Below, one piece after another: positions 5,067 to 61,562 of a DNA stretch of 64,000 nt. The notes below the pieces were generated by a model. The model ran no database searches. It was not told the DNA's origin and worked only from the letters and a program-made list of their open reading frames with translations. The DNA is from a virus. A program made the translations under genes and the position numbers. The stretch lies in the UHGV virus genome UHGV-0212524; one strand, 5' to 3'. How positions within the stretch are numbered: the stretch's first letter is position 1; each line of letters begins with the position of its first letter.

Positions 5067-5089
5067 GGATAGATATTATCAATGGGAGA
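5067..5089 (+). promoter_or_regulatory. degenerate copy of the conserved promoter-like motif (GGATAGATATTATC..GGGAGA)
   Basis: matches the motif found at 26185, 30839, 46575 and 50194; sits after a terminator T-tract and upstream of gene 5179. Confidence 0.3.
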
Positions 5090-6199: not shown

Positions 6200-7975
6200 G
6201 TGTTTAAAGATGCAATCAGAAAGCTTAAAGAGGATGGCAAAATAGTACCCTTTAACCGAGCGATTGCGGAAGGTGTCGGTTATACACAGGCCAAAGACGG
6301 TATACACGAGCGTGTTCAGATTATCTTGAAACGTGAGCTGGATTATCATCCTGTTGATAATCCGCGTGTTCCTGAAGGGCTGGCTGTATTAGGTGTACGG
6401 TTAATGTCACCGTTTGAAACGTTCATCTATAAGCTGTCTCGTTCTGAGAGCAGCAGAATGGATAGACGTCGTGGTGTGATGTCCATTGCGAATACTGATG
6501 CGTATATGGTCATGTCAACATTCCGTATTCCAGGAGATTCTCGACCGATCTCAAGACCGATTAACTTACCCTTTATCCGTCGTGGTGGTTTAATGAACTA
6601 TTACGGTACGACGTATCACGTTGCACCGGTTATTCACCAGCCAGGTATCTGTCGCGAACACGGTGGGGTATTTGTTAACTTTGACTTTAAACGTAAAGCC
6701 TCGTTGAAATTCTGTAAGCAACCTGTCCGTGTGTTAGTCAACGGTAAAAAAGAGGAGCTATTCTTACCAGGAACCAAAAACCTGTTCAAAGCGAAGAACG
6801 CAACACATCCTGATACTGACGAGAAACCGTTAATGTATTGGTTGTTCGGACGTTACGGATTTAAAGAAGCGATTAAACGCTATACTGGTGTTGACGTAGA
6901 AATTTATCCATCGTTTAAGATCCCAGAACTCGATCTCAACGAGAAAGTTGTAATCAGTTCCGGTGAATCGAAATATAACCGTTCGATAATGTACGCGGTT
7001 GTCGTACCCGCAGAAGCATTGCCGAACGTGGATAAAGTTGGTTGGGATCAAAACGAGCATTTGTTGCTGGCCGCAATTGCTGCGTTCTTCAAAGCCGCTC
7101 ACTACTATTGCAGTAAACAATCCATTAAGAACGGTAACGTCACGCCGCTCCCGCCGCTGTTTACCGCAATTAACGAGTTAGCGATGGAAGACGATATTGC
7201 TAACCTGAACTCTGCTCCGATTTGGCGTGAGATTCTGGGAAGAAGTATCGTAGGACTGAAACCTTCCGATATTGAGTTAGCGCACAGTATGGCGAAACAC
7301 TATACTGAATGCGATCGCTACGTTAACTCAACGTTCCGTGCAGAACTGAAGATGACCGATCCTGACATTCCAGACGACATGGATATGTTTGATTTCTTCT
7401 GGTATGCAACGAAACTGATGGTACGTACCCGTTTGACTAAACAGGGTGACATTCCGTCGATGTACGGAAAACGTTTAACCGTAACTGACTACTTACTGTT
7501 AGGTGACCGTGGGTTTACACCAACGGTAGCGGCTATTCGTTTCCATCTGGGACAAACGGAGAATCGTTCGCCAGAATCCTGCGCGAATATGATTCGTAGC
7601 GCACTCAATAAAGAAATTGTCACGAGTCTGGTGTTGCGTAATATCACTGGTAACGGCGGTGTAAGTTATTTCAACGCATCAACAGAGTCCATGGTACTAG
7701 GAGTATCCACACACGCGATTAGTCAAACTGAAACGGAATCTAAACGTAACAGCAAAGGCGGTAAAACGGTTAACCTTAATGACCGTACGAAACACGCTTC
7801 TGCATCGCATCTGGAGTGCGGTAACGTTTATTACATTCCGAAATCGTCCCCGTTCAAATGGGGTATCCTTAACCCGTACATGAAAACTAGCCGTCAGTTA
7901 GTGATGGTTCGTAATCCAAAACTTGACGAGTTAATCCAAGCAACCGAAGAAGATATTGCGAAGATTGGCCGTTAA
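6200..7975 (+). CDS. hypothetical protein (591 aa)
   Basis: long ORF in operon context. Confidence 0.6.
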   Translation: MFKDAIRKLKEDGKIVPFNRAIAEGVGYTQAKDGIHERVQIILKRELDYHPVDNPRVPEGLAVLGVRLMSPFETFIYKLSRSESSRMDRRRGVMSIANTDAYMVMSTFRIPGDSRPISRPINLPFIRRGGLMNYYGTTYHVAPVIHQPGICREHGGVFVNFDFKRKASLKFCKQPVRVLVNGKKEELFLPGTKNLFKAKNATHPDTDEKPLMYWLFGRYGFKEAIKRYTGVDVEIYPSFKIPELDLNEKVVISSGESKYNRSIMYAVVVPAEALPNVDKVGWDQNEHLLLAAIAAFFKAAHYYCSKQSIKNGNVTPLPPLFTAINELAMEDDIANLNSAPIWREILGRSIVGLKPSDIELAHSMAKHYTECDRYVNSTFRAELKMTDPDIPDDMDMFDFFWYATKLMVRTRLTKQGDIPSMYGKRLTVTDYLLLGDRGFTPTVAAIRFHLGQTENRSPESCANMIRSALNKEIVTSLVLRNITGNGGVSYFNASTESMVLGVSTHAISQTETESKRNSKGGKTVNLNDRTKHASASHLECGNVYYIPKSSPFKWGILNPYMKTSRQLVMVRNPKLDELIQATEEDIAKIGR

Positions 7976-8014
7976 CCACGAAAGACGTATTAAGACCTAT
8001 TAGGAGAATTAAGA

Positions 8015-9625
8015 ATGGCAAGCTACAGCGAAACTCGTGAATTTATCTTGAAAGTTTTTATGGCTAAACAGGATCAGCTTTTGAACTATCTCGTCGACGC
8101 GATGAACGCGAAGGGGATAAAAGAAGATCCGTTTGTTAATGCAGCGTGTATTGTGGGTAACTGGTATCTGCAAAACCGTCGCCCTAGTGACCAAACTAAC
8201 GTTGCGGTTATCGAAACCTTTAAGGCAACGCTCTATAGCCGTCTGTTAGGTTTAGGTCTGACTCCGTTGCAGCCGGACATTCATAGCGCGTTAGAGAAAG
8301 CGTTTGTGCTGGCGAATCAGCTTGCAGAAGAAGCACGTCGTGCTGGGCAGGGTGGATTCGGTGTGCGTACTGAACCGGTTAACTTCGGTATTCAGAATTC
8401 GCAGAATGCGCAACCAACTGCACCGATTCAGGGTTCTTCTGTACCGATGGCCAGCTATACTCCGGCCGGTGTAACAGTGCAACCTGTACAATCCGCTCCG
8501 GTATTCGGTGGTACTCCGCAAACTCAACCGCAAACGCAAACACAGCCTGCTATTATTCAGCCGACTGTTCCGCAGGAAGTGATGAACAAAAGCAAGCCTG
8601 TGGATATGAATAAGGAAACGATGGATGATATCATTCAACGTGCTAACCGTCCTCACCATGACATTTTGCGGGTAGAAATTGTGGAAGACTATTTAGATCA
8701 CGAGCTGAAAGAAAAGATTCAGCAAAACGTTGTTTCGCCGAAAGAAGCTAACACACGCGTCAAGAATTCTGTGTATGCAGAACATCGTGACTGGGGTGAT
8801 AAGGTTAGTGAACTGGTTGAAGATAACGACAAACAATATTGCTCGTATGACGATGCGGGTATCATGGTGAAAGTCGAAAGCGAATACCGTCTGTATCCGA
8901 TGGCACAGACTGAAACTTCTGCGGTGTATCTCCAGGAGTTTTATAGTTCGGTTCGCCAGATTATCGACGATCTCGATACCGTACGTGATATTGACGATAT
9001 TGAAAAGCTGATGGAGCGTGTTTCTAATGACGTCTTCAGACTGCGTGACCTTGCACAACGTTTGTTAATGTACTTCCTCACCAAATCTGATGAGAATGAA
9101 ACGTATCGTAGCGAATGTTCAGCGTTTACTCGTCGTTTCATTGCAACATTAACCGTGCTGGTTCACAACGCCATCTCCGTGGCATCTGCTTACGGTAAAG
9201 ACGTTCCGGGTACGAAATTCGTACAGTTGGAATGCTGCCTGGATGACATGACCTACTTTAAAGAGACAGTGTATGGTCGTACCATCGGTGAAAATGGTGT
9301 GAGCAAGTCTGCGGATTATTTTCGTGAAATGTTCCTGCTGATCGCGCGTTCTCTGCGTAAGCTGCACATTCGTCTGACCTGCGATAATAAAGCTATTGAA
9401 CTGTCTCAGGTAACGTACACGATTTCTCTGCAAGCAGATTATCAATCCGCTAACGATCGCCATATCGTGGAAATCTCATCGTTTGGTAACAGCTTCGAAC
9501 CGATTGTTTCAATCTACGAAGTCATTAACCAGAAAGCACCAGAAGCGTTCATTAAACTTAAGACCCCGTCTCATGTTTATTCGCTGCTGAGCACAGGTGA
9601 CGTGACTGCACCAGTTCGTTATTAA
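8015..9625 (+). CDS. hypothetical protein with Q/P/T-rich low-complexity linker (536 aa)
   Basis: long ORF; internal PQTQPQTQTQP stretch. Confidence 0.6.
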   Translation: MASYSETREFILKVFMAKQDQLLNYLVDAMNAKGIKEDPFVNAACIVGNWYLQNRRPSDQTNVAVIETFKATLYSRLLGLGLTPLQPDIHSALEKAFVLANQLAEEARRAGQGGFGVRTEPVNFGIQNSQNAQPTAPIQGSSVPMASYTPAGVTVQPVQSAPVFGGTPQTQPQTQTQPAIIQPTVPQEVMNKSKPVDMNKETMDDIIQRANRPHHDILRVEIVEDYLDHELKEKIQQNVVSPKEANTRVKNSVYAEHRDWGDKVSELVEDNDKQYCSYDDAGIMVKVESEYRLYPMAQTETSAVYLQEFYSSVRQIIDDLDTVRDIDDIEKLMERVSNDVFRLRDLAQRLLMYFLTKSDENETYRSECSAFTRRFIATLTVLVHNAISVASAYGKDVPGTKFVQLECCLDDMTYFKETVYGRTIGENGVSKSADYFREMFLLIARSLRKLHIRLTCDNKAIELSQVTYTISLQADYQSANDRHIVEISSFGNSFEPIVSIYEVINQKAPEAFIKLKTPSHVYSLLSTGDVTAPVRY

Positions 9626-9663
9626 GTTTGGATTGGGGGTGGAAACATCCCCATTTTTAAGGA

Positions 9664-9918
9664 GTGCGTATGGCCGCTTATGTTGATTACAGTAAAGCCA
9701 AGATAGAGCTAAACGTAATTGATACCGTGGAGCGTTTAAAGCAACAACTTTCTTTGGAGTTATATCAACTTCGCGTCCGTATTCACGAGCGTGAACAACT
9801 TATTGAGAAACGTCCATTATTTATCGACGAGAAGCAGGTAAAACTTATCACTGCGGAGTTAGAAGTTATGACCGCAGAGAAACTGTTACTCGAAGAACGT
9901 ATCGCTGCTATTGGTTAA
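9664..9918 (+). CDS. hypothetical small coiled-coil protein (84 aa)
   Basis: ORF followed by terminator. Confidence 0.5.
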   Translation: MRMAAYVDYSKAKIELNVIDTVERLKQQLSLELYQLRVRIHEREQLIEKRPLFIDEKQVKLITAELEVMTAEKLLLEERIAAIG

Positions 9919-9927
9919 TCACCACAC

Positions 9928-9960
9928 AAGGAGAGCTTCGGCTCTCCTCCTTCTTTTTTA
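9928..9960 (+). terminator. rho-independent terminator
   Basis: GGAGAGC-TTCG-GCTCTCC hairpin plus T-tract. Confidence 0.75.
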
Positions 9961-17342: not shown

Positions 17343-17921
17343 ATGTCGCAACCAACACAAGACGTGTCAGCCGCAATTCTTGACATTCTTATCCAAGCAG
17401 GAAACAGAAAGTTAAGTAAAGAGCAGTCCGAAGAACTGTCTAAGATTCTCAAAGACAACTTCGGTGACGACGTCTCTGTAGACGTAACGCGGTCAGGTAC
17501 AAAGATTCTGTCGGAGCTACGTCCAACGCTTCTTGAGAACATTGGAAAGATGGCGGAAAACTTTCAGCAGCAAGCCACAAATGCTGTAGAGAGTTTAGGT
17601 GACGAAGTAAGCAAAGAAACGATGTTGACGCTGTGGCCAAAACTTGCCGGTGCACAGAAGTTCATTATTGTTCTGCTTGCACTCGCCACTGTGGTCGTGA
17701 CAGGCTTCTTAGCGTACGACACGCATCAGAACTTTCCAAAAGACAGCATGGAAGTGTTGTTTGTATCCTTACTTCCGCTGTTTGGACTGGTAGTATTCGC
17801 AACGTGGCCGATTAAAACATTGGCTTACAAGTCGTTGGAGATTGCTACCAAAGTTGTCGAGAAGAAACTTGAGAAATCAGGTCAGGTCGTCGCGAAGACG
17901 GAAACAAAGACAACGAAATAA
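17343..17921 (+). CDS. hypothetical membrane protein (192 aa)
   Basis: two hydrophobic segments (FIIVLLALATVVVTGFLAY, LLPLFGLVVFATWPI). Confidence 0.55.
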   Translation: MSQPTQDVSAAILDILIQAGNRKLSKEQSEELSKILKDNFGDDVSVDVTRSGTKILSELRPTLLENIGKMAENFQQQATNAVESLGDEVSKETMLTLWPKLAGAQKFIIVLLALATVVVTGFLAYDTHQNFPKDSMEVLFVSLLPLFGLVVFATWPIKTLAYKSLEIATKVVEKKLEKSGQVVAKTETKTTK

Positions 17922-26184: not shown

Positions 26185-26209
26185 TCAGATAGATATTACC
26201 TTAGTGAGA
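26185..26209 (+). promoter_or_regulatory. conserved promoter-like motif TCAGATAGATATTACCTTAGTGAGA
   Basis: near-identical to copies at 46575 and 50194; follows a terminator and precedes gene 26260; followed by an inverted repeat. Confidence 0.45.
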
Positions 26210-34306: not shown

Positions 34307-34837
34307 GTGATAGCACGACTTGTGGGTTGGTTTAAGCAATGTCGTGCAAAGGCGGTCGAATGGCCGCCTATTACGCATGACGAGAAAGTGGCTCTTTTTT
34401 TGAGATATAACAAAGACTTGAAGAGATTAGGTGGATTAATGCGCTTAACGGAACGTCAGGTTTTTGCTAAGATTTCGAGCAGCGAGTTGCGTAAAGAAGT
34501 AATTCCACACCTATCCTTTTTAGGGCAGGTTTATGCAATGACGACAGAGGAATTTTTATCAACCCAAGGTAGCGAACGGCCACATATTCGGTTTTCCGTC
34601 GTAGGTGAACCTGATACGGTAGGTGAAATCGATTTTAAGATGCTGTATCGCAGAATAAAAGATGATGGGTTTATACATGTTAAACGATTATCAGAAACTT
34701 CTGTGGTGATTTATCATCGCACTGATCAGGATTTGTTAGGGTGTGTTATAAGGCTAACAAATTTACGTAGTTTTTACGTTGATTTACTTACAGACTTTTA
34801 TCCGGAACCTTGGTGTTTTATAGATGAAAATAAATGA
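34307..34837 (+). CDS. hypothetical protein (176 aa)
   Basis: ORF. Confidence 0.5.
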   Translation: MIARLVGWFKQCRAKAVEWPPITHDEKVALFLRYNKDLKRLGGLMRLTERQVFAKISSSELRKEVIPHLSFLGQVYAMTTEEFLSTQGSERPHIRFSVVGEPDTVGEIDFKMLYRRIKDDGFIHVKRLSETSVVIYHRTDQDLLGCVIRLTNLRSFYVDLLTDFYPEPWCFIDENK

Positions 34838-35036
34838 CGGATATATCATTTCAGCAATCGTTTCAACTGCGTTGATTGTAGCGATGTTGATGTTCTACGT
34901 TAAGACGTCTGACGAATCACGTAGAGACTCCCTTTATCGTGAATGTATGTCAGGCACTACTGTAGATAATCCACGCTACGCTGAATTAGTAATGGCGTGT
35001 ACGGAATACGCTAATCGAATGGGAGGAGGGAAATGA
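34824..35036 (+). CDS. small membrane protein (70 aa)
   Basis: hydrophobic segment ISAIVSTALIVAMLMFYV. Confidence 0.45.
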   Translation: MKINDGYIISAIVSTALIVAMLMFYVKTSDESRRDSLYRECMSGTTVDNPRYAELVMACTEYANRMGGGK

Positions 35037-35230
35037 AAATTTGGTTGCCGATTCTAGTTTTTATCGTTATTGCAGGGGCACTCGCAAGTGCTGAGTTAGA
35101 TAGCCGTACTTTAGAAACGAAACGTGAATTGTACCAGGACTGTATAAAGGATTATACACCGGGTACAGAGCTTCATGCACAAGCTGTAAAAAGTTGTGCG
35201 TTGATGGCTGAATCGCAGACTCGCTCCTAA
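35033..35230 (+). CDS. small secreted/membrane protein (65 aa)
   Basis: N-terminal MKIWLPILVFIVIAGALASA. Confidence 0.45.
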   Translation: MKIWLPILVFIVIAGALASAELDSRTLETKRELYQDCIKDYTPGTELHAQAVKSCALMAESQTRS

Positions 35231-53834: not shown

Positions 53835-54683
53835 ATGTCTCTTACGTCAAAACAGAAACTGCTAAAACTCATCAACACTGAAAACAATATTAGTCCACCG
53901 TTGACTTTCAGTGATGTTGATATCGGAGAACCTACCGGTACTGGGGTTGATACCCAGGTGGTTCTGACCTCTAAACTCAAAGGCGATGAGTCTACTACTT
54001 TAACAGTGACTTACCACCGTCGTAATTTACCTGACTACTTAACCGGTGAGTTGGTATTCGGTAACGACAGTGTGGTAACCGCATCAGATTTGCTTAATGC
54101 GATCAACGCAAAATACAGCCTAAATATTTTACCCTCGGATATCGTTGACGCAAAAGTTGAAGGCGAAACCCATCAGCTTACCGCTAACGAGAAATCTTAC
54201 GAGTGGTGCGGTGTAGTAACGCTTACGCTGCATGATCCTATTGACCTGACTGAACTTTTACCAGTTACTCAATTAGAGAATCTGGTAGAGTATCCGTCCA
54301 CTAAGAAAGGTAACGCTGCGGTTTATTCACACCCGATTGATTTCACCGCAGAAAAAGATTACCTTGACCCGATTACTATCAACGACACCGTAGACTTGGT
54401 AGAGTTAGCCTCTAAACTGGATGGCGTCGTTGATGAGAAATGGGTAAGTGTACCTAAGAACGCGGCTAACAACCTGTACGGTGCTAAAGTTATTTACGAT
54501 GGTCCAACCGCAGGTTACGAAGGCGCAAATACGAAGTTCACTCGTGTGTTGGTGCTAACGCTCAGCCCGCTGTGTTCTAACCTGACCGGTAACCTGTTAA
54601 TTCACTTTAACGGTACCGATCGTCCGAAGTCGAAGATTGAATTAGCACAGACTAATCCGGTCTTACCGGGATTCTTAGATTAA
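53835..54683 (+). CDS. paralog-family protein (282 aa), probable virion protein
   Basis: TTLTVTYHRRNL and SDLLNAINAKYSLNILPSDI motifs shared with 54697, 35731, 45858. Confidence 0.55.
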   Translation: MSLTSKQKLLKLINTENNISPPLTFSDVDIGEPTGTGVDTQVVLTSKLKGDESTTLTVTYHRRNLPDYLTGELVFGNDSVVTASDLLNAINAKYSLNILPSDIVDAKVEGETHQLTANEKSYEWCGVVTLTLHDPIDLTELLPVTQLENLVEYPSTKKGNAAVYSHPIDFTAEKDYLDPITINDTVDLVELASKLDGVVDEKWVSVPKNAANNLYGAKVIYDGPTAGYEGANTKFTRVLVLTLSPLCSNLTGNLLIHFNGTDRPKSKIELAQTNPVLPGFLD

Positions 54684-54696
54684 GAGGATTACAGTA

Positions 54697-55176
54697 ATGA
54701 CCAATCAAGAAACTATCTTCGACCTTATTAAAAAGGCTAACCCGGACGCTGAGTTCGACACCACCAAAGTCACGCTGGGCGATCCGGTTGTGACCACCGG
54801 TACTTACAATACCGAAATCACAGTTGCGTCAATTAAGAATCTCGGTTACACTAACGAACAAACGTTCCAGTATAACCGCATTGACGCAGGTTTGTATTTC
54901 CTGAACGTATTACCGAAACTGTTGGTAGAATCTGCAACGACTACCGCTGACTTACTGCCCGTCATTAACGAGCAGTACAGCCTAACCCTTACAGAAGACG
55001 ACGTGTGGGTAGAACAGGTTGGTGAGTTACCGTTGGACGGTAGCGCAATCGAACACGGTATTTTCTTCCGTCCTGAGTGTCTGACTTGGGTCGGCGGTTT
55101 TACGGTGCGTGTTGCACGTAAACCGGCTGTTGAAACACCGCCAGCTAAGCCATCACGCGCTAAGAAGAAAAAATAA
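54697..55176 (+). CDS. paralog-family protein (159 aa) with basic C-terminal tail
   Basis: TFQYNRIDAG and ADLLPVINEQYSLTLTEDDV motifs; C-terminal SRAKKKK. Confidence 0.55.
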   Translation: MTNQETIFDLIKKANPDAEFDTTKVTLGDPVVTTGTYNTEITVASIKNLGYTNEQTFQYNRIDAGLYFLNVLPKLLVESATTTADLLPVINEQYSLTLTEDDVWVEQVGELPLDGSAIEHGIFFRPECLTWVGGFTVRVARKPAVETPPAKPSRAKKKK

Positions 55177-55239: not shown

Positions 55240-55830
55240 ATGGCTGAACGTTGGTCTAAAGAAGGTATCATTGAATCCAAAACCGATTTGGAAGGCGGGT
55301 ACGTCAACGACCCTGACGACTTAGGTGCAGAAACGAACCACGGTATCACGGTAACGACTGCACGTGAGTACGGTTACACAGGGAAGATGAAAGACCTTAC
55401 CCGTGCACAAGCATTCGATATCTACGATCGCGGTTGGTGGAAGAAGCTCAAACTTGATGAGATTTTCGCTATCTCACCGTTACTCGCGGACCGGATGTTT
55501 GATTTTGGTATTAACGCAGGTCGTGCCAACTGCGTGAAATCGCTACAGCGTATTCTCAACGTGTTGAACAACGAAGGTAAACTCTACGCGGACATCGATA
55601 CCGACGGCGGTATGGGGCCTAAAACGCTGGGCGCGTTGAACGCGTACCTGAAATATCGTAAAGATGAAGGGCTAAGCATTTTAATCTTTGCGTTAATCTC
55701 GCACCAAGTAACTTACTACACGGAAATCTCCGAAAAACGTAAGAGAAACGAGAAATACACCTACGGTTGGTACGGCCGCGTCTTCAGAGAAATGGCAGAT
55801 TATGCGGTAAAAGCGGGGTTAGTAAAATGA
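55240..55830 (+). CDS. endolysin, GH108-type muramidase with C-terminal peptidoglycan-binding domain
   Basis: N-terminal EGGYVNDPDDLGAETNHGIT matches the GH108 signature (EGGY..DP.D..G.T..GIT); C-terminal DTDGGMGPKTLGALNAYL resembles PG_binding_3; strong AAGAGGAG RBS. Confidence 0.7.
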   Translation: MAERWSKEGIIESKTDLEGGYVNDPDDLGAETNHGITVTTAREYGYTGKMKDLTRAQAFDIYDRGWWKKLKLDEIFAISPLLADRMFDFGINAGRANCVKSLQRILNVLNNEGKLYADIDTDGGMGPKTLGALNAYLKYRKDEGLSILIFALISHQVTYYTEISEKRKRNEKYTYGWYGRVFREMADYAVKAGLVK

Positions 55831-55931
55831 ACTGGTTTGCTAAACTCTTAGCGTTATTGTGGAAAGCGTTAACGTCTGGACGGAAACGTAAAGACGAAAA
55901 ACGTGGACAAGAGTTCTTCTGGTTTTTGTAA
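55827..55931 (+). CDS. small ORF (34 aa) overlapping the endolysin stop (ATGA); amphipathic/basic peptide, lysis-accessory candidate
   Basis: MNWFAKLLALLWKALTSGRKRKDEKRGQEFFWFL; not in the supplied ORF track because it is under 60 aa; speculative. Confidence 0.25.
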   Translation: MNWFAKLLALLWKALTSGRKRKDEKRGQEFFWFL

Positions 55932-55937
55932 GGAAAG

Positions 55938-56612
55938 GTGTGGGTAATGGAAAAGCTTCAATATAAACGTTTAGATAATAAGTGGTTTGTATTAACGGAG
56001 GATTACCATTATCCGTTTACGTTACGTGAGATTTATCACGACCACGTACACTTAGACCGTGCGGTTTATTTAACCGGTGTATTACCTGACACGCAACTGT
56101 GGTTAACCGCTCCGAAAGGGTTCGTTACCGATTTAGCGTCAATTCCTGAACACTTACAGGGAATTTTCCATCCTGACGGACCGTGGGCACCTGCGGCCTG
56201 CATTCACGACTTACTCTATCAAAAATGTAACACGGAGCGTAGCTATCCCATGACACCGGGTGGTAACGTTTCGCGTATTATCGATAAAGAGTTCTCTGAC
56301 TTAACATTCCTGCGTATTATGCAGTCGTTGGAAATCTCGCCGTATATCTGCCAAACATTTTATAAAGCCGTGGCGGGGTTCGGTTGGGATGCTTACGTAG
56401 ACCCTAACGCGAAGCCGTCTTATACCACTAACGATTACCGTACGTTAGATTACAATCGAAACTATTTGTTCGTTCGTGAGTTTAAGGAGCCTGCTATTCC
56501 TGACCACGAACGTGTTGATATCACCACAGGTTGTCCCGTTAATGTCAAATACTTGAACATCAAACGGGCTTTTCTGTCTGGGAGGGAAGATGTTTCATCC
56601 AAATCCGAGTAA
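55938..56612 (+). CDS. DUF1353-like phage protein candidate (224 aa)
   Basis: GFVTDLASIPEHL and AACIHDLLYQ resemble the TD.AS.P / HD.LY motifs I associate with DUF1353; from memory only. Confidence 0.35.
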   Translation: MWVMEKLQYKRLDNKWFVLTEDYHYPFTLREIYHDHVHLDRAVYLTGVLPDTQLWLTAPKGFVTDLASIPEHLQGIFHPDGPWAPAACIHDLLYQKCNTERSYPMTPGGNVSRIIDKEFSDLTFLRIMQSLEISPYICQTFYKAVAGFGWDAYVDPNAKPSYTTNDYRTLDYNRNYLFVREFKEPAIPDHERVDITTGCPVNVKYLNIKRAFLSGREDVSSKSE

Positions 56613-57105
56613 CTTTAAACTCAAAGAGTTAGTACCACAATCGTACATCGCCAAATACGGTGATTCTGCAATTCGGTTTATGAACCCGTTGTTAATGATT
56701 TCGCTACAACAGATTCGTAACCGTTTCGGCAGAATGGTGATTAACTCGTCTGCTGCGCAACAGCGTGGCCTAAGAACCTTAGACTTTTTCATCAACCAAG
56801 AAAAGCCTAAGGGTGGTAACTATAAACAACGTGCGTTACAACTCTACTCTGATTCAGGGAGTCAGCACAAGTTCGGTAATGCATTTGACGCAACACTGTT
56901 AGACTCAACGGTAAAACAAGTCCACGACTATATCGCCGCTAATCCTGACGAATTTCCGTTCATTCACTTTATCGAATGCGACATCAGTTGGTTACATATC
57001 GACGTTCGTAACCAACCGAATATCACGTTCTGGTCACCGAATCGCGGTACTGTGAAAGTCGTGAAACAAAGCCCTATCGATTGGAGCGCCTTAGTTAAAA
57101 TCTAA
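56590..57105 (+). CDS. peptidase M15-like (hedgehog/DD-peptidase fold) zinc peptidase, likely second cell-wall hydrolase
   Basis: SQHKFGNAFDAT fits the HxxGxAxD zinc-binding motif and WLHIDVR the distal His/Asp motif. Confidence 0.5.
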   Translation: MFHPNPSNFKLKELVPQSYIAKYGDSAIRFMNPLLMISLQQIRNRFGRMVINSSAAQQRGLRTLDFFINQEKPKGGNYKQRALQLYSDSGSQHKFGNAFDATLLDSTVKQVHDYIAANPDEFPFIHFIECDISWLHIDVRNQPNITFWSPNRGTVKVVKQSPIDWSALVKI

Positions 57106-57189: not shown

Positions 57190-57230
57190 ATAAGCCTACC
57201 CTCCTGCTAAGCAGGAGGGTATTTATTATT
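57190..57230. terminator. bidirectional terminator between convergent genes
   Basis: ACCCTCCTGC-TAA-GCAGGAGGGT hairpin with A/T-rich flanks on both sides. Confidence 0.75.
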
Positions 57231-57705
57231 CTACCGGGTGCAACATAGTGCCGGTATCCGGAATGCTGCCTTCGTGACATCTGAAGAACGTTACACCTTT
57301 ACCTTCACCCGTTTTGTAGTTGACGGTAGAATACGCAAACGTTGGGGTTTTCGACAGTAACCCGTTTACACGGTAATAGCGCTCACCGGTAACAACGTTT
57401 AAGTTACCGTCCACCTTGCCTAACAGGTCTTTATAAAGTTGCGGAGATTCAATTTTACCTTCGTCCCATGTAGCGACCCAATTCGCCCCTGTATCCATGA
57501 CTAACACCGAAAGGGGCATCAGTTTTAGGCTAGACGGTACCGGTTTAAAATCGTCGAATTCTTGAGAAGCAGCTGTACAGGTGTAAATGACCATATCGTG
57601 TTGGTCAACAGGTACGGTGGAGAACTGACCTTCTGCGTTCGGCTGAATAGCACAACTTGCCAATGTCATTACAAAAGCAACGACCACGAGAATGCGTTTT
57701 AGCAT
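57226..57705 (-). CDS. lipoprotein (about 160 aa) on the opposite strand; superinfection-exclusion or lysis-associated candidate
   Basis: N-terminal MLKRILVVVAFVMTLASC with lipobox-like LASC; AAGGGTGAG RBS before the ATG at 57705; flanked by terminator and a divergent promoter region. Confidence 0.55.
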   Translation of the reverse strand: MLKRILVVVAFVMTLASCAIQPNAEGQFSTVPVDQHDMVIYTCTAASQEFDDFKPVPSSLKLMPLSVLVMDTGANWVATWDEGKIESPQLYKDLLGKVDGNLNVVTGERYYRVNGLLSKTPTFAYSTVNYKTGEGKGVTFFRCHEGSIPDTGTMLHPVE

Positions 57706-57843
57706 AATCTCACCCTTATTAAAATTAAGAAAAATTAATTTTTTCAGGTTAGCGCCTACTGCCAACCGTCATATCTATATTTTAGGAAATGTCTAAAATA
57801 ACATTCTTATGCAATCCACCCCTACCACTTACGAGGTAAAAAG

Positions 57844-58380
57844 ATGGCTAAAACCTTCAAACTGCAGTTCGTCGAAGCTGTAATTGCTAAAAACCCAGGA
57901 ACCGCTTCTAATCTGACGGTTGATGATGTCGATTTTGGTGCTGTCGAAGCGCACAGCGGTACCGGTGGTCGTAACACCAAAATTACGCTGACCGCCAAGG
58001 CAGAAAGCCAGAACTTCAAAGGCGAGAAAGAATTCCACTACATTCGTCTGGCTTCTCAAGACCTGATCGGTGCCAAAGCTTACGAAAAAGCCGGTAGCCT
58101 CGATCTGGAAAACTCTGCCATTGTAACCAAACTGAACGAAGAAATGGTTACTAAAGGTTATGTCGATGACTATTTCGCTGAAAGCGAACTGACCATTGAG
58201 AAAACTGACGGGGATAGTGGTGCTAAAGTTTACACTGTCAAAGTAAACGATGCACACATTAAATTCCTGGCTGGTACTATTGCCACCTTCACTTATTCCA
58301 ACCCAGCTCCTGAGAAGGTAGCGCTGAGCGGTCTGGAAGGTGAACTTGATGGCTTCACTGCACCGGGTGTCGGTGGCTAA
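57844..58380 (+). CDS. paralog-family protein (178 aa), probably abundant virion protein
   Basis: optimal-codon bias; NTKITLTAKAESQNFKGEKEFHYIRL and C-terminal ELDGFTA shared with 58450..58980. Confidence 0.6.
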   Translation: MAKTFKLQFVEAVIAKNPGTASNLTVDDVDFGAVEAHSGTGGRNTKITLTAKAESQNFKGEKEFHYIRLASQDLIGAKAYEKAGSLDLENSAIVTKLNEEMVTKGYVDDYFAESELTIEKTDGDSGAKVYTVKVNDAHIKFLAGTIATFTYSNPAPEKVALSGLEGELDGFTAPGVGG

Positions 58381-58388
58381 GTAAGTTA

Positions 58389-58420
58389 AATCGGGGGGGG
58401 TGACCTCCCCCGATATTTCT
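58389..58420 (+). terminator. terminator hairpin containing a G8 run
   Basis: ATCGGGGGGGG-TGACC-TCCCCCGAT hairpin. Confidence 0.6.
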
Positions 58421-58449
58421 CTAACTTGTTCTATTAAGGACCTAAGATA

Positions 58450-58980
58450 ATGGCCGCTACTAACCAGATGATGTTGGTCGCGCTTTATAATGCTGCTAAC
58501 GCTGAGCTACCGCATCAGATTACAGATAAAGAAGTGTCCTTTGGTCTCCCTACTGCGCTGGAAGGCGAAAGTAAGAATACCAAAGTTACCATGACCGCAC
58601 TACCGGGTTCTGAGAATTTCAAAGGCGAAATCGAACTGCATTACGATCGTCTGGAGCCGGGTGTTGTAGGACGGATTGAACTAACTGACGATCTGTCTCG
58701 TTGGGTTCAAGAAAATGAACTCCGCGCTTGGTTACAGCTATACATCAACAAAGTAAAACCTGACGACGCTATCGCGCCAGGTGACGTTGTGTACAGCACC
58801 GAAGACCAGAAAGACGAACATGAAAACGTCACTCTGCGTACCGTGACATGCACCGTTACTGAACAGAACCTCCGTTATAAACCGGGTGTAATGGCAACTT
58901 TCGTAATTACACCGAAGGTAGTCGATAATCGTATTGACCTGGCCACCACCGACGGTGAATTGGACGGTTTTACTGCTTAA
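58450..58980 (+). CDS. paralog-family protein (176 aa), paralog of 57844..58380
   Basis: NTKVTMTALPGSENFKGEIELHYDRL and C-terminal ELDGFTA. Confidence 0.6.
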   Translation: MAATNQMMLVALYNAANAELPHQITDKEVSFGLPTALEGESKNTKVTMTALPGSENFKGEIELHYDRLEPGVVGRIELTDDLSRWVQENELRAWLQLYINKVKPDDAIAPGDVVYSTEDQKDEHENVTLRTVTCTVTEQNLRYKPGVMATFVITPKVVDNRIDLATTDGELDGFTA

Positions 58981-59000: not shown

Positions 59001-59052
59001 ACAAAAAATAATAAGTTTACCTACCTCCTTTACGGAGGTAGGTATTTTTTAT
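59001..59052. terminator. bidirectional terminator marking the boundary of the reverse-strand island
   Basis: TACCTACCTCC-TTTAC-GGAGGTAGGTA hairpin with A-tract upstream and T-tract downstream. Confidence 0.8.
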
Positions 59053-59723
59053 TCTAATCCCATTTCCAGCGCAAGTGCACGGATCGTGTCGTAGTCACGC
59101 TGTTCGGCGTACTGACGAATTTCACTTTTCTGGGCAGACATCGCGTTGTGTAGCTGTTGGTCACGTTTCACAATAGCCGCCATTAACGCTTTACATTGCT
59201 CCAGCGTAAACGGTTCTATACGTGTATTCGACGTGTCCAGCCAATAATCCGGTGCAGTTTCAGACTGGATATATTGACCCAGCATCTGACGAGAGGTTTC
59301 ATCCGCTTGGAAATGATGGCCGTCAACTTCGATATAACCGTGACGCTGGTCTTCGTATCGGTGTTCAATTTCCAACATGATTTTCTGGATATCTAAATAG
59401 ATATAGCGAGACGTCGAGCGCATATTCGAACGAATCTCGTCCAGGTTAATCTCCAGAACGTCAGTAATGAATTCTTTTGCTTTGTTCAGTGTAAACTTCG
59501 CCTCAATAGGAGACATTTCGTAAGTTTGCATCTGAGCTAAAGCTTCTTCATCACTCATCCCTTCAATCAACTTATAGTGCAGTAATGCACAGAACCCCGT
59601 ACGACCACGGTCTTCGTTACCTACACGTTCCATGTAGTTACCGTGGCGGTCAATTGGCAGATCGTGCGCGAAATAACGCGCCCGAATCTCTTCTTTCGTT
59701 AAGCTTTTGTTAGAAGCAGACAT
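59049..59723 (-). CDS. hypothetical protein (224 aa), last gene of the radical-SAM island
   Basis: minus-strand ORF co-oriented with the radical SAM genes. Confidence 0.5.
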   Translation of the reverse strand: MSASNKSLTKEEIRARYFAHDLPIDRHGNYMERVGNEDRGRTGFCALLHYKLIEGMSDEEALAQMQTYEMSPIEAKFTLNKAKEFITDVLEINLDEIRSNMRSTSRYIYLDIQKIMLEIEHRYEDQRHGYIEVDGHHFQADETSRQMLGQYIQSETAPDYWLDTSNTRIEPFTLEQCKALMAAIVKRDQQLHNAMSAQKSEIRQYAEQRDYDTIRALALEMGLE

Positions 59724-60265
59724 TCTTCTTCTCCAACCATACCTAATTCTTGCAGCAAGCCAAAATCAACCAACTGGAAGGTTTCAGAGAGATCGTTTGA
59801 CCACACCACGTTTGCAATGTCGCGTTCTTCATCCGTTAACTGTGGTAACACATTTTCGTTGAACGTCTGATGCTCTACGTAATAAGCATCGTAGATAGAC
59901 GTAGAACGCAAGCAACGGATTGGCAGACGCGGGAAAGACACCGCTAATGCAGCAATAGATGCGCTACTCGGATTCTCCGCAGAATAACGAAGCAATTCGA
60001 TCTTGTGGCGTGGGTAATCCAGTACGCGTTGTTCGAAACCCGGATTACGTTTTTCGATTTCCACAACGGACTCATGGCCTGTCTCTGTACAGTAAACGGG
60101 AATCATCACGTTTAGCCCGTACTTAATCAACAGAGGTTTAATCTCATCTGTAAAGTCTTCACCAGGGATAATGGCGTGAACGTTATAGAGTTTGTGTTTG
60201 CGCAGAAAACGCTCAACCAGGTGGAGTTTACGCTTCGTAAAATTGTGGATCAGAATTGATTTCAT
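59699..60265 (-). CDS. hypothetical protein (about 188 aa)
   Basis: minus-strand ORF; ATG at 60265 preferred (GAGG RBS) over 60289. Confidence 0.5.
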   Translation of the reverse strand: MKSILIHNFTKRKLHLVERFLRKHKLYNVHAIIPGEDFTDEIKPLLIKYGLNVMIPVYCTETGHESVVEIEKRNPGFEQRVLDYPRHKIELLRYSAENPSSASIAALAVSFPRLPIRCLRSTSIYDAYYVEHQTFNENVLPQLTDEERDIANVVWSNDLSETFQLVDFGLLQELGMVGEEECLLLTKA

Positions 60266-61562
60266 TATTTGCCTCAGTAGGTTGTGCATTTAACGCACGT
60301 TTAGCTTGCTCACGCTCACGCGTACATTTCGGACAGTAACAAACAGACGAATCGTGCAGTGACGATGCGTGGACGGTGCCTGTACGTTGACGCCAGTATT
60401 CTGCCGCCATCAGTTTTGCGGTCGTCCAACCACATTGACGTCGTTCAGCGTGGTACGCCTTACGGTCTTCCAGTGTCCCTTCACCGTTTTCGTAGGAAGC
60501 AGCTGCACAGCTCCCACAACCGTGTTTCATCGGACAACCTAAGCACGTTTCAGGATAGTTGGTGTATTGCGTCTGAATCTCTTCCAGCAGTTTCCCGCCG
60601 TCTAAGCTAACAAACTCACGACCGACTAACTCAAACACCGCAGAGCGTGACGTTACCGTTGACATGAATCGGTTACAACCATACACCTTACGGTCAAAAC
60701 CTAAACAAGTCATAAACGTCAACGTCCCACAGAACGGACGTAAACGTTCAGGGTTATAACGGTGCGTGTCGTCGTACAGCAGTTTATCACGCCAATCTGG
60801 GTCCCAAATCTGACGGAAATCCAGACCTTCAGGAATGATGTGGGACAACACGTTACGTGGATTGGTGTGCAGCCCTTTCTCAATCCAATAATCCATCACC
60901 TCGATCATCTGCAACGCAATATCCGTTGCCATGCTCCGTGGAAGGATATCTTCGTACGTCACGTTACCCGAAATCGTACCACCACCCGCAATATCGATTA
61001 ACGACTTCATACTCGCCGCGTAATGCGGGAGGGTTTCGGTTGTAAAGGTTGCCTTGATACCCAGTTCAGCAATACCCACTTCTTTTAAGTAGTTATAGCC
61101 ACGAACAGCGGCTTCGTAAGAACCCTGACGCGTCGTGGTAAAGATACGATAACGGTCATGGACTTCTGGCAGCCCGTCGATAGACACACCGATGGAGAGT
61201 TTGTCTTTCCAACGCTCGACGATCTCACGGTTTAACGGACGGTCTAACAACGTCCCGTTCGTGGAGATACTGAACATATACGGTCGATTATGCTCCTTAC
61301 ACAACTGTTCTGCGGTTTCAAACGCCGCTAACAGCAGTTTCGGTTGCATAAAAGGTTCGCCGCCGATGATATCAATAATGACGTCGATGTTCGGAATATC
61401 TTTATCACGCTCAAAACAGGCGTGTAAGAAATCCACGATATCCGCCGCTTTGTTATTACGCGGATACTTACGTTCGTAACAATACTCACAGTCTAAGTTA
61501 CAAGACAGGTTCGTTACCACCTGGTAAGTACGTTGTGAACGTGGTGCTTCATTATTGCTCAT
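60228..61562 (-). CDS. radical SAM enzyme with C-terminal SPASM-like Cys cluster (444 aa), peptide maturase candidate (ScfB/anSME-like)
   Basis: N-terminal CNLDCEYC (CxxxCxxC), IIGGEPFMQ (GGEP), C-terminal TCLGCPMKHGCGSC plus further Cys (QCGW, VCYCPKC). Confidence 0.8.
   Translation of the reverse strand: MSNNEAPRSQRTYQVVTNLSCNLDCEYCYERKYPRNNKAADIVDFLHACFERDKDIPNIDVIIDIIGGEPFMQPKLLLAAFETAEQLCKEHNRPYMFSISTNGTLLDRPLNREIVERWKDKLSIGVSIDGLPEVHDRYRIFTTTRQGSYEAAVRGYNYLKEVGIAELGIKATFTTETLPHYAASMKSLIDIAGGGTISGNVTYEDILPRSMATDIALQMIEVMDYWIEKGLHTNPRNVLSHIIPEGLDFRQIWDPDWRDKLLYDDTHRYNPERLRPFCGTLTFMTCLGFDRKVYGCNRFMSTVTSRSAVFELVGREFVSLDGGKLLEEIQTQYTNYPETCLGCPMKHGCGSCAAASYENGEGTLEDRKAYHAERRQCGWTTAKLMAAEYWRQRTGTVHASSLHDSSVCYCPKCTREREQAKRALNAQPTEANNEINSDPQFYEA

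What the first reader, a model, noticed from the sequence alone, without database searches (positions are those of the whole stretch)
57226..57705. Reverse-strand lipoprotein inserted between forward operons
A lipobox protein (LASC) is transcribed opposite to its neighbours and sits between a bidirectional terminator and a divergent promoter region. This moron-like arrangement recalls phage lipoproteins that block the receptor (T5 Llp, Cor) or act as outer-membrane spanin components.
Basis: partly seen in the sequence, partly recalled or inferred. Interest (0 to 1): 0.45.

Follow-up and report, generated by a model that had tools for sequence, protein, structure and literature searches.

The report
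Conserved jumbo-phage outer-membrane lipoprotein gene
This is a real, stand-alone gene for a small lipid-anchored envelope protein (the counterpart of Salmonella phage SPN3US gp159) that giant nucleus-forming phages of enteric bacteria all carry; its job is untested, it is probably not a lysis spanin, and it most plausibly alters the host envelope to block further phage attachment or entry.

Summary
Window 57226-57705 (-) encodes a 159-aa protein with a canonical lipoprotein signal (MLKRILVVVAFVMTLASC|A), the only such ORF in the 64-kb window. It is the lone reverse-strand gene between forward genes. A strong hairpin terminator lies 4 nt after its stop, and a 138-bp divergent promoter region lies upstream.

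The window is an SPN3US-like jumbo phage, and the gene is the orthologue of SPN3US gp159 (phrog_9559, function unknown). The family is small, with 14 clusters among 1.84 billion proteins. It was found only on jumbo-phage-sized contigs and always carries the lipobox plus two further invariant cysteines. The model is a beta-barrel-like all-beta domain (pLDDT 84) with no specific structural relative.

Its promoter is not sigma-70-like. An invariant TATGAC, the phiKZ late-promoter type, is followed by a 5' hairpin.

The spanin reading is disfavoured: no transmembrane partner gene, no C-terminal anchor, and a folded rather than proline-rich domain. There is no homology to Llp or Cor. Functional analogy remains the best guess (about 0.35). 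In every lineage the gene sits among DUF7941 virion-protein genes, some fused to LRR-type or TIM-barrel domains, and in phage Goslar it directly follows the tail fibre and its assembly gene. Interest is modest.

The parts
57226..57705 (-). Lipoprotein CDS, 159 aa (mature 142 aa, 15.6 kDa, pI 5.0); orthologue of SPN3US gp159 (SPN3US_0159 / ACQ60_gp107); phrog_9559
   Evidence: dN/dS 0.13
57652..57705 (-). Signal peptide plus lipobox (MLKRILVVVAFVMT-LASC). Cys18 codon is 57652-57654; the +2 residue is Ala, so outer-membrane sorting is expected under the E. coli Lol +2 rule.
   Evidence: The lipobox Cys is invariant in 17 diverse members and in all 17 SPN3US-like loci.
57709..57717 (-). Shine-Dalgarno AAGGGTGAG, 3 nt before the ATG
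   Evidence: read from sequence
57768..57773 (-). Invariant TATGAC, a phiKZ-type late-promoter motif T(-3)ATG(+1). Predicted transcription start is G at 57770, giving a 65-nt 5' UTR.
   Evidence: Invariant in 17 loci (15 distinct sequences), 35-68 nt before the ATG, with unconserved flanks. Motif definition from PMC4666361.
57747..57767 (-). Predicted 5'-terminal stem-loop of the mRNA (7 bp, -9.8 kcal/mol) followed by an A-rich tract
   Evidence: A hairpin at +1 to +4 is present in every lineage with a different sequence. Mean z against mononucleotide shuffles is -2.0 over 11 sequences. No Rfam match.
57197..57221 (.). 11-bp GC-rich hairpin, 4 nt after the lipoprotein stop. It is terminator-like on both strands.
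   Evidence: an equivalent hairpin follows the stop in all 18 family loci checked
57808..57811 (+). TATG motif of the divergent partner gene, 33 nt before its ATG and 41 nt from the lipoprotein start site
   Evidence: the complementary CATA is conserved in all orthologous intergenic regions
57844..58380 (+). Divergent partner gene: a small DUF7941 paralogue, homologue of SPN3US gp160. gp160 has high spectral counts in SPN3US virion preparations, including the column I read as tailless particles. It is the only invariant neighbour within the SPN3US-like clade.
   Evidence: SPN3US mass-spectrometry table in the PMC5105663 supplement

Best explanation
Shown or strongly supported. The gene encodes a bona fide bacterial-type lipoprotein made by a virulent, nucleus-forming jumbo phage of the SPN3US group. 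After signal peptidase II cleavage at LAS|C it would be triacylated. With Ala at +2 it would be carried by Lol to the inner leaflet of the outer membrane. There a roughly 10-20-residue tether holds a compact all-beta, barrel-like domain in the periplasm. Two invariant cysteines lie near the start and end of that domain, so a disulphide is likely. A short variable tail follows. The gene is its own transcription unit, with a phiKZ-type TATG promoter, a 5' hairpin and a strong terminator. The protein is absent from the SPN3US virion mass-spectrometry table checked.

Inferred, about 0.35. It acts on a host envelope component from the periplasmic side to stop further phage attachment or DNA entry. 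That means superinfection exclusion and/or sparing the progeny from adsorbing to infected cells and debris. This is the job done by T5 Llp and Cor, performed here by an unrelated fold. Expression is probably late, alongside virion genes.
For: Lipoprotein features
- Signal peptide, lipobox and +2 Ala.
- Lipobox Cys plus C43 and C143 invariant over 17 members down to 26% identity.
- AlphaFold model at pLDDT 83.9 with a core above 90; all-beta, with the first long strand and the last strand each carrying one Cys.
- Purifying selection.
- gp159 is absent from the SPN3US virion mass-spectrometry table, while gp155 and gp160 are present.

Transcription unit
- Invariant TATGAC plus 5' hairpin, matching the phiKZ late-promoter definition.
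- No early-type extended motif, although the window has four such motifs elsewhere.
- In two lineages the gene is the last cistron of a virion-gene array.
- Terminator hairpin in all loci.

Functional inference
- In every lineage the gene lies inside or at the edge of the DUF7941 virion-protein array. Members of that array are fused elsewhere to LRR_5, DUF285 and TIM-barrel modules, which I interpret as adhesin- or enzyme-like.
- In Goslar (gp088) it directly follows a P1 S-like tail fibre and its assembly protein.
- The family was found only on jumbo-phage-sized contigs. Named hosts are enterobacteria, plus one MAG labelled Shewanella. No relative was found in one genome for each of 185,579 bacterial and archaeal species, although that scan used only two peptide patterns.
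- In close relatives the lipoprotein allele is swapped for a deeply diverged one (dS saturated), while flanking genes are 90-99% identical. This is typical of host-interface genes.
- T5 Llp is likewise a periplasm-facing outer-membrane lipoprotein with a termini-stapling disulphide, encoded next to the receptor-binding protein gene (PMC9586334).
Against: - No sequence or fold relationship to Llp, Cor or any characterised exclusion protein.
- Exclusion proteins such as Llp are made early, whereas this promoter looks late.
- SPN3US is reported to use flagella as receptor (PMC11428620), so an outer-membrane target is not obvious.
- In SPN3US the DUF7941 paralogues were assigned to the head, not the tail (PMC5105663), which weakens the 'next to receptor-binding genes' argument.
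- The tail-fibre adjacency is seen in one lineage only.
- Neighbourhood is circumstantial, and no phenotype is known.
- In the window and in SPN3US the gene is also within 2 kb of the GH108 endolysin, so a lysis-related role is not excluded.
Confidence: 0.35

Rival explanations
1. Outer-membrane spanin component or other lysis accessory. The lipoprotein would help disrupt the outer membrane at the end of infection, alone or with a partner encoded elsewhere.
For: - It is an outer-membrane lipoprotein with a late-type promoter.
- In the window and in SPN3US it lies three genes after the GH108 endolysin and next to an M15-like peptidase.
- It has a variable, partly Pro/Ala/Thr-rich C-terminal tail.
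- In the window's own clade, the homologue of the other candidate o-spanin of these phages has lost its lipobox. This protein may therefore be the only lipoprotein there.
Against: - No ORF with an N-terminal transmembrane segment is adjacent, overlapping or embedding it. The gene is monocistronic between a terminator and a divergent promoter.
- No C-terminal transmembrane segment; the maximum 19-residue hydropathy in the C-terminal third is 0.11.
- The mature part is a folded domain of about 120 residues with 6% proline, not a short proline-rich peptide.
- Linkage to the endolysin is not kept in Goslar, L022, L024, L026 or L027.
- SPN3US and four other genera carry a separate, adjacent pair of transmembrane protein plus lipoprotein with spanin-like architecture.
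Confidence: 0.2
2. Periplasmic inhibitor or regulator of a peptidoglycan hydrolase, working like MliC/PliC or like T4 Spackle. It would protect the infected cell from the tail lysins of superinfecting phages, or restrain the phage's own lysins until lysis.
For: - A weak BFVD match to an RB49 protein named LprI-like lysozyme inhibitor (E 2e-4, TM 0.46).
- Neighbours in the window are a GH108 muramidase and an M15-like peptidase. The SPN3US homologue of the latter (gp158) was detected in some virion preparations and judged not to be a head component.
Against: - No Pfam hit for any of 17 members, even at E <= 10. From memory, the MliC signature motifs are not among the conserved columns of this family.
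- The M15-like gene is absent next to the lipoprotein in Erskinevirus, and the lysin genes are not adjacent in Goslar, L022 or L026.
Confidence: 0.1
3. Another envelope function not covered above. Examples are remodelling outer-membrane or flagellar components to aid infection, or countering a host envelope-level defence.
For: - The family has no characterised relative.
- Its distribution is restricted to jumbo phages, mostly of enteric hosts.
- SPN3US is flagellotropic.
Against: No positive evidence; this is the residual category.
Confidence: 0.3
4. Chance ORF or mis-called gene.
For: None beyond the absence of any annotation.
Against: - Conserved at 26-99% identity in 14 clusters.
- dN/dS 0.13.
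- Invariant lipobox, promoter, Shine-Dalgarno sequence and terminator.
Confidence: 0.01

Closest known systems
Salmonella phage SPN3US gp159 (SPN3US_0159, YP_009153453.1) and its orthologues (Erwinia phage Asesino gp174, Wellington gp172, Goslar gp088); PHROG 9559
   Same: True homologues, 54% identical for SPN3US and 33% for Goslar. They share the lipobox, the two extra cysteines and the predicted barrel. Within the SPN3US-like clade the synteny is the same.
   Different: Nothing substantive. All are annotated hypothetical protein or 'Lipoprotein', and none has been studied. gp159 does not appear in the main text of PMC5105663 or in the virion mass-spectrometry table in its supplement.
T5 Llp and the Cor lipoproteins of T1, phi80 and N15 (receptor-blocking superinfection exclusion)
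   Same: A phage-encoded outer-membrane lipoprotein facing the periplasm, with a small domain and a pair of cysteines near its ends. It has its own transcription unit and is encoded among virion or host-recognition genes. In Goslar it is right after the tail fibre, as llp is next to the pb5 gene.
Two-component spanins (lambda Rz/Rz1) and unimolecular spanin (T1 gp11)
   Same: An outer-membrane lipoprotein signal, late expression, and proximity to an endolysin in this window.
   Different: No partner gene with a transmembrane segment, no C-terminal transmembrane segment, and a folded barrel rather than a short proline-rich peptide. Linkage to lysis genes is not conserved.
MliC/PliC-type lysozyme inhibitors (for example Brucella PhiA, PDB 7dpy)
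   Different: No Pfam match for any member. The similarity is no better than to unrelated barrels.

Membership tests
Bacterial-type (Lol-sorted) lipoproteins | N-terminal signal with a positive n-region, a hydrophobic core and the lipobox [LVI][ASTVI][GAS]C | tested here: met
   MLKR-ILVVVAFVMT-LASC. It is the only match among all ORF starts of the window. The Cys is invariant in 17 members.
Bacterial-type (Lol-sorted) lipoproteins | Actual diacylglyceryl modification and signal peptidase II cleavage | not testable with these tools
   Needs globomycin or palmitate labelling.
Bacterial-type (Lol-sorted) lipoproteins | No Asp at +2 (the outer-membrane sorting rule of E. coli) | tested here: met
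   +2 is Ala in the window, and Ala, Val or Ser in the homologues.
Two-component spanin, o-spanin subunit | Gene embedded in, overlapping or adjacent to an i-spanin gene (N-terminal transmembrane segment plus a periplasmic helical domain) | tested here: not met
   The neighbours are a convergent M15-like gene and a divergent DUF7941 gene. No same-strand ORF with a transmembrane segment is present.
Two-component spanin, o-spanin subunit | Short, proline-rich, largely unstructured periplasmic domain | tested here: not met
   142-aa mature part with 6% Pro; confident all-beta fold.
Unimolecular spanin (T1 gp11 type) | Lipobox at the N-terminus plus a C-terminal transmembrane segment | tested here: not met
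   The maximum 19-residue Kyte-Doolittle score beyond residue 100 is 0.11.
Llp / Cor exclusion lipoproteins | Sequence or fold homology to T5 Llp or Cor | tested here: not met
Llp / Cor exclusion lipoproteins | Blocks the phage's own receptor when expressed | not testable with these tools
   Needs plating and adsorption assays.
Moron (Hendrix sense) | Own promoter and terminator, inserted between genes of other units | tested here: met
   Predicted TATG promoter and hairpin terminator, both conserved. Prediction only.
Moron (Hendrix sense) | Sporadic presence among otherwise similar genomes | tested here: not met
   Present in all 55 matching phage records and 13 IMG/VR relatives at the same position.
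MliC/PliC lysozyme inhibitors | Match to the family profile and its signature motifs | tested here: not met
   No Pfam hit at E <= 10 for any of 17 members. Only a generic barrel similarity.

The most novel reading that the evidence does not exclude
A previously uncharacterised, structurally new family of outer-membrane lipoproteins is the envelope-level superinfection-exclusion (or progeny-protection) factor of nucleus-forming jumbo phages of enteric bacteria. It would act from the periplasmic face on a still unknown host receptor or entry component, and would be exchanged between phages as an allele cassette together with surface-exposed virion proteins.
Probability: 0.3. Interest if true: 0.55.

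Novelty: new variant of a known kind. Interest (0 to 1): 0.33.

Why it matters
Nucleus-forming jumbo phages are studied intensely for how they shield their DNA inside the cell. Almost nothing is known about how they deal with the cell envelope: their entry receptor at the surface, exclusion of competitors, and lysis.

This gene is one of only two predicted lipoprotein genes found in the whole SPN3US genome. It is clade-conserved, has its own transcription unit, and shows signs of allele exchange. That makes it a cheap, well-defined handle on this question, since a single plasmid-expression experiment could be informative. If it blocks adsorption or entry, it would also point to the unknown secondary receptor of these flagellotropic phages. 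It would also matter for designing phage cocktails that include SPN3US-like phages.

If it does nothing of the kind, it remains one more conserved hypothetical.

Tried and rejected
Searches that found nothing
- Megablast of 55-60 kb against 50,697 phage records: no match. The window phage itself is not in that collection.
- Pfam, NCBIfam and PADLOC on the protein: no hits. Pfam at E <= 10 on 17 members gave only noise.
- PDB profile search: only the signal peptide matched, to the TrwH lipoprotein at E 0.07.
- Scan of one genome for each of 185,579 bacterial and archaeal species: no relative. The scan used only two peptide patterns, so it is not exhaustive.
With P0012 and P0013 alone it found nothing.
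- Rfam on the locus: nothing.

Structure
- The first AlphaFold model (9 sequences, pLDDT 66) was too weak. The second (17 sequences, pLDDT 84) was used.
- Foldseek against AFDB50 was unavailable.

Literature
- The time-resolved SPN3US proteome paper (PMC6384053) that could give expression timing is not held.
- Searches for SPN3US with gp159, spanin or lipoprotein, and for Goslar with lipoprotein, found nothing relevant.

Rejected on the evidence
- The longer TTG start at 57765 begins 5 nt after the predicted transcription start and has no Shine-Dalgarno sequence. All homologues align from the ATG.
- Sigma-70 promoters are at background.

An argument that had to be weakened
- The argument 'the spanins are elsewhere' holds for SPN3US and four genera. 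In the window's own clade, however, the lipoprotein half of that pair has a Cys-less signal peptide.

Full report
**1. What is at the coordinates**

The minus-strand ORF at 57226-57705 encodes 159 aa. It begins MLKRILVVVAFVMTLASC|AIQ. That is a +2 n-region, a 10-residue hydrophobic core, the lipobox L-A-S-C (57652-57663) and Ala at +2. The ATG is preceded by AAGGGTGAG at a 3-nt spacing.

A lipobox scan over every ATG, GTG or TTG start in all six frames of the window finds this gene only. The same scan of the complete 240-kb SPN3US genome finds two genes, one of which is the orthologue.

The gene is the single minus-strand gene between a long plus-strand block and two more plus-strand genes. 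An 11-bp GC-rich hairpin (57197-57221) lies 4 nt after its stop and scores as a terminator in both directions.

**2. Where the window comes from, and the family**

The DNA has no near match among 50,697 phage records. The protein, however, matches 55 jumbo phages of Salmonella, Erwinia, Escherichia and Proteus at 47-60% identity. The neighbourhood is that of SPN3US-like phages (genera Seoulvirus, Erskinevirus, Machinavirus and Wellingtonvirus):
- GH108 endolysin, DUF1353 and M15-like genes on one side;
- small DUF7941 paralogues, DUF4376 and two radical-SAM genes on the other.

The orthologue is SPN3US gp159. PHROGs files it as phrog_9559, function unknown. Pfam, NCBIfam and PADLOC have nothing.

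A profile search of 1.84 billion representative proteins returns only 14 clusters. The members whose sources I looked up lie on contigs of up to 220-250 kb, or on short fragments. A pattern scan of one genome for each of 185,579 bacterial and archaeal species finds none. The family was thus found only in jumbo phages. Its hosts are mostly enteric bacteria, with one member in a MAG labelled Shewanella.

**3. The protein**

Across 17 members down to 26% identity, only ten columns are invariant. Three of them are cysteines: the lipobox Cys18, Cys43 and Cys143. None of the members has Asp at +2.

With the 17-sequence alignment, AlphaFold gives pLDDT 83.9, with more than 90 over residues 31-100 and 121-140. 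The model has:
- a signal helix;
- a low-confidence tether (residues about 19-30);
- ten beta strands;
- a disordered tail after Cys143.

Cys43 lies in the first long strand and Cys143 in the last. A disulphide closing the domain is therefore plausible, but I could not measure it because no coordinates were available.

dN/dS against a 97%-identical relative is 0.13. gp159 is not in the SPN3US virion mass-spectrometry table, whereas its neighbours gp155 and gp160 are.

**4. The transcription unit**

The sigma-70 scan is at background, as expected for phages that bring their own RNA polymerases (general background in PMC7598289).

I aligned the upstream regions of 17 orthologous loci. A hexamer TATGAC is invariant 35-68 nt before the ATG, while every flanking position varies. 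phiKZ late promoters are defined by T(-3)ATG(+1), in which each base is required for transcription by the non-virion polymerase (PMC4666361).

Directly after the putative +1 G, every lineage can form a small hairpin of different sequence, followed by an A-rich run. The mean z is -2.0 against mononucleotide shuffles. This fits a 5'-terminal mRNA stem-loop.

On the other strand, a TATG 33 nt before the divergent DUF7941 gene is conserved in the same way.

The window also contains a long, nearly identical motif, TTTTTTCTCAGATAKATATTACCTAGGTGAGAG, at 26189, 46579 and 50198, with a weaker copy at 5069. It resembles the extended AT-rich early-promoter type described for these phages. The lipoprotein lacks it.

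In two distant lineages the gene has no promoter gap of its own and is the last cistron of a DUF7941 virion-gene array. Every one of the 18 loci examined has a strong hairpin within a few bases of the stop codon.

The gene is thus a self-contained unit, probably transcribed late. All of this is prediction. The SPN3US time-course proteome paper is not in the library.

**5. Neighbourhood across lineages**

Within the SPN3US-like clade, the only invariant neighbour is the divergent small DUF7941 gene, the homologue of SPN3US gp160. The 3' neighbour changes between M15-like, DUF1353 and others, and whole flanking blocks are rearranged.

Outside that clade the reverse orientation is lost, but the address is kept:

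| Lineage | Position of the lipoprotein gene |
|---|---|
| Goslar (gp088, 33% identical) | Immediately after a P1 S-like tail fibre (gp090) and a Caudo_TAP tail-fibre assembly protein (gp089); before a protein with DUF7941, NCTSP_N and NCTSP TIM-barrel domains (gp086) |
| L026 | Between two DUF7941 proteins; the downstream one carries DUF285, and a third, further upstream, carries a faint LRR_5 hit |
| L024, L027 | Ends a DUF7941 array |
| L025 | Divergent from a 180-aa gene (not characterised), with a GH108 gene beyond it; a DUF7941 array lies downstream |

DUF7941 therefore looks like an attachment domain that carries variable binding modules. In SPN3US the 17-member paralogue family was assigned to the head (PMC5105663). 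I therefore do not claim that these proteins are tail fibres.

In two close relatives of the window phage (L008, L009), the lipoprotein is 72% identical and the gp160-like gene 55%, while the flanking genes are 90-99% identical. For the lipoprotein, dS is saturated, whereas the flanks have dS of 0.3-1.4. That points to replacement of the allele by recombination rather than to rapid point evolution.

**6. Testing the spanin idea**

Architecture.
- There is no same-strand ORF with a transmembrane segment that is adjacent to, overlapping or embedding the gene.
- There is no C-terminal transmembrane segment.
- The periplasmic part is a folded domain of about 120 residues with 6% proline.
- Linkage to the endolysin is not kept in several lineages.

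A second candidate pair in SPN3US. The only other lipoprotein in SPN3US (180497-180976, LLTGC) lies 10 nt after an ORF (180017-180487). That ORF has an N-terminal transmembrane segment, a charged central stretch that I read as probably helical, and a proline-rich C-terminus. This is the architecture of a separated i-/o-spanin pair.
- The lipoprotein half matches 68 phage records.
- Both halves, and the lipobox, are kept in the five representatives aligned.
- Both are 'unknown function' in PHROGs, so calling them spanins is my inference.

A caveat. In the window's own clade the transmembrane protein is present at 51% identity. Its downstream partner, however, has a Cys-less, signal-peptidase-I-type signal (MKMLLFIMVVFVGLVSNSYG|DE). 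Either that pair is not a spanin, or this clade solves outer-membrane disruption differently. The 'spanins are elsewhere' argument is therefore weaker for the window phage than for SPN3US, and I leave 0.2 on a lysis-related role.

A further lysis candidate. A conserved 34-aa cationic amphipathic peptide gene overlaps the endolysin stop codon at 55827-55931. It is another unassigned candidate for a lysis role.

**7. Testing the Llp/Cor idea**

As a working analogy it fits on several counts:
- T5 Llp is an outer-membrane lipoprotein on the periplasmic side.
- Its termini are tied by a disulphide.
- It is encoded next to the receptor-binding protein gene.
- It inactivates the receptor allosterically (PMC9586334).

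The present family shares the topology, a terminal cysteine pair, an independent transcription unit and residence among virion or host-recognition genes. It also shows allele exchange and a host-restricted distribution.

Against the analogy:
- the late-type promoter, since Llp is made early;
- the reported flagellar receptor of SPN3US (PMC11428620);
- the head assignment of the DUF7941 paralogues;
- the fact that all of the supporting evidence is circumstantial.

**8. Other rivals**

A lysin-inhibitor role (working like MliC/PliC or T4 Spackle) is suggested by the PhiA match, which had the lowest rmsd and the highest identity among the top hits. The neighbouring GH108 and M15-like genes point the same way. 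However, the match is no better than to unrelated barrels, no family profile matches, and the lysin linkage is not conserved. I give it 0.1. A residual 'other envelope function' keeps 0.3.

**9. Verdict**

The finding is a real and neatly delimited feature. It is a conserved gene for an outer-membrane lipoprotein, forming its own transcription unit, in SPN3US-like jumbo phages. The gene is already present in databases as a hypothetical protein or 'Lipoprotein' and has never been characterised.

It is not a spanin by architecture and not a homologue of Llp or Cor. Its most likely role is envelope-level exclusion or progeny protection, at about 0.35. As a kind of thing, a phage-encoded outer-membrane lipoprotein unit, it is known. 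As a family and fold it is new and untested, so I rate it a new variant of a known kind, of modest interest.

Noticed in passing
SPN3US NC_027402.1 180017-180976 (L031:30017-30976); window-clade relatives L052:1962-2924, L053, L054, L063: This is an adjacent pair with separated i-/o-spanin architecture: a protein with an N-terminal transmembrane segment and a proline-rich C-terminus, followed by a lipoprotein. Both are unannotated and 'unknown' in PHROGs. The lipobox is kept in Seoul-, Erskine-, Machina- and Wellingtonvirus. In the window's own clade the second protein has a Cys-less, signal-peptidase-I-type signal instead. This is unexplained.
   Followed up: partly
window 55827-55931 (+): A 34-aa cationic amphipathic peptide gene (MNWFAKLLALLWKALTSGRKRKDEKRGQEFFWFL) whose ATG overlaps the GH108 endolysin stop codon (ATGA). 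It is conserved at the same place in SPN3US, STsAS, Asesino (annotated gp172) and phiEaH2. It could be a membrane-active lysis peptide.
   Followed up: partly
window 26189, 46579, 50198 (and a weaker copy at 5069), + strand: A nearly identical extended motif, TTTTTTCTCAGATA(G/T)ATATTACCTAGGTGAGAG, sits in intergenic regions, three of the four just after terminator-like hairpins. It probably represents this phage's early (virion RNA polymerase) promoter consensus.
   Followed up: partly
L019/L021 (Goslar) 7343-9955; L026 84-4520 and 7623-9341; window 53835-55176 and 57844-58980: The DUF7941 N-terminal domain is shared by many virion paralogues. In other jumbo lineages it is fused to LRR_5 (faint hit), DUF285 or a 'non-contractile tail sheath' TIM barrel. 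This suggests a common virion-attachment domain that carries variable binding or enzymatic modules.
   Followed up: partly
window 56590-57105 (+): This M15-like peptidase (phrog_894 endolysin; faint Peptidase_M15_3 hit in a relative) is 80% identical to SPN3US gp158. gp158 was detected in some SPN3US virion preparations and judged not to be a head component. It is a candidate tail-associated cell-wall hydrolase, in addition to the GH108 endolysin. It is absent at this position in Erskinevirus.
   Followed up: partly
window 34824-35036 and 35033-35230 (+): Two adjacent, overlapping small genes (70 and 65 aa). Each has one N-terminal transmembrane or signal segment and a similar Cys-containing C-terminal part. 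They may be paralogous small membrane proteins of unknown role.
   Followed up: no
window 59049-60289 (-) compared with L006, L007, L009; window 57226-58380 compared with L008, L009: The region is strongly mosaic between otherwise near-identical relatives. The 196-aa hypothetical gene drops to 51% identity and DUF4376 to 70% in some relatives. The lipoprotein (72%) and the gp160-like gene (55%) drop in others, while flanking genes stay at 90-100%.
   Followed up: partly
window 17343-17921 (+): A 192-aa ORF with two strong predicted transmembrane segments (around residues 107 and 136). It was not examined and is one possible holin-type candidate in a genome with no annotated holin.
   Followed up: no
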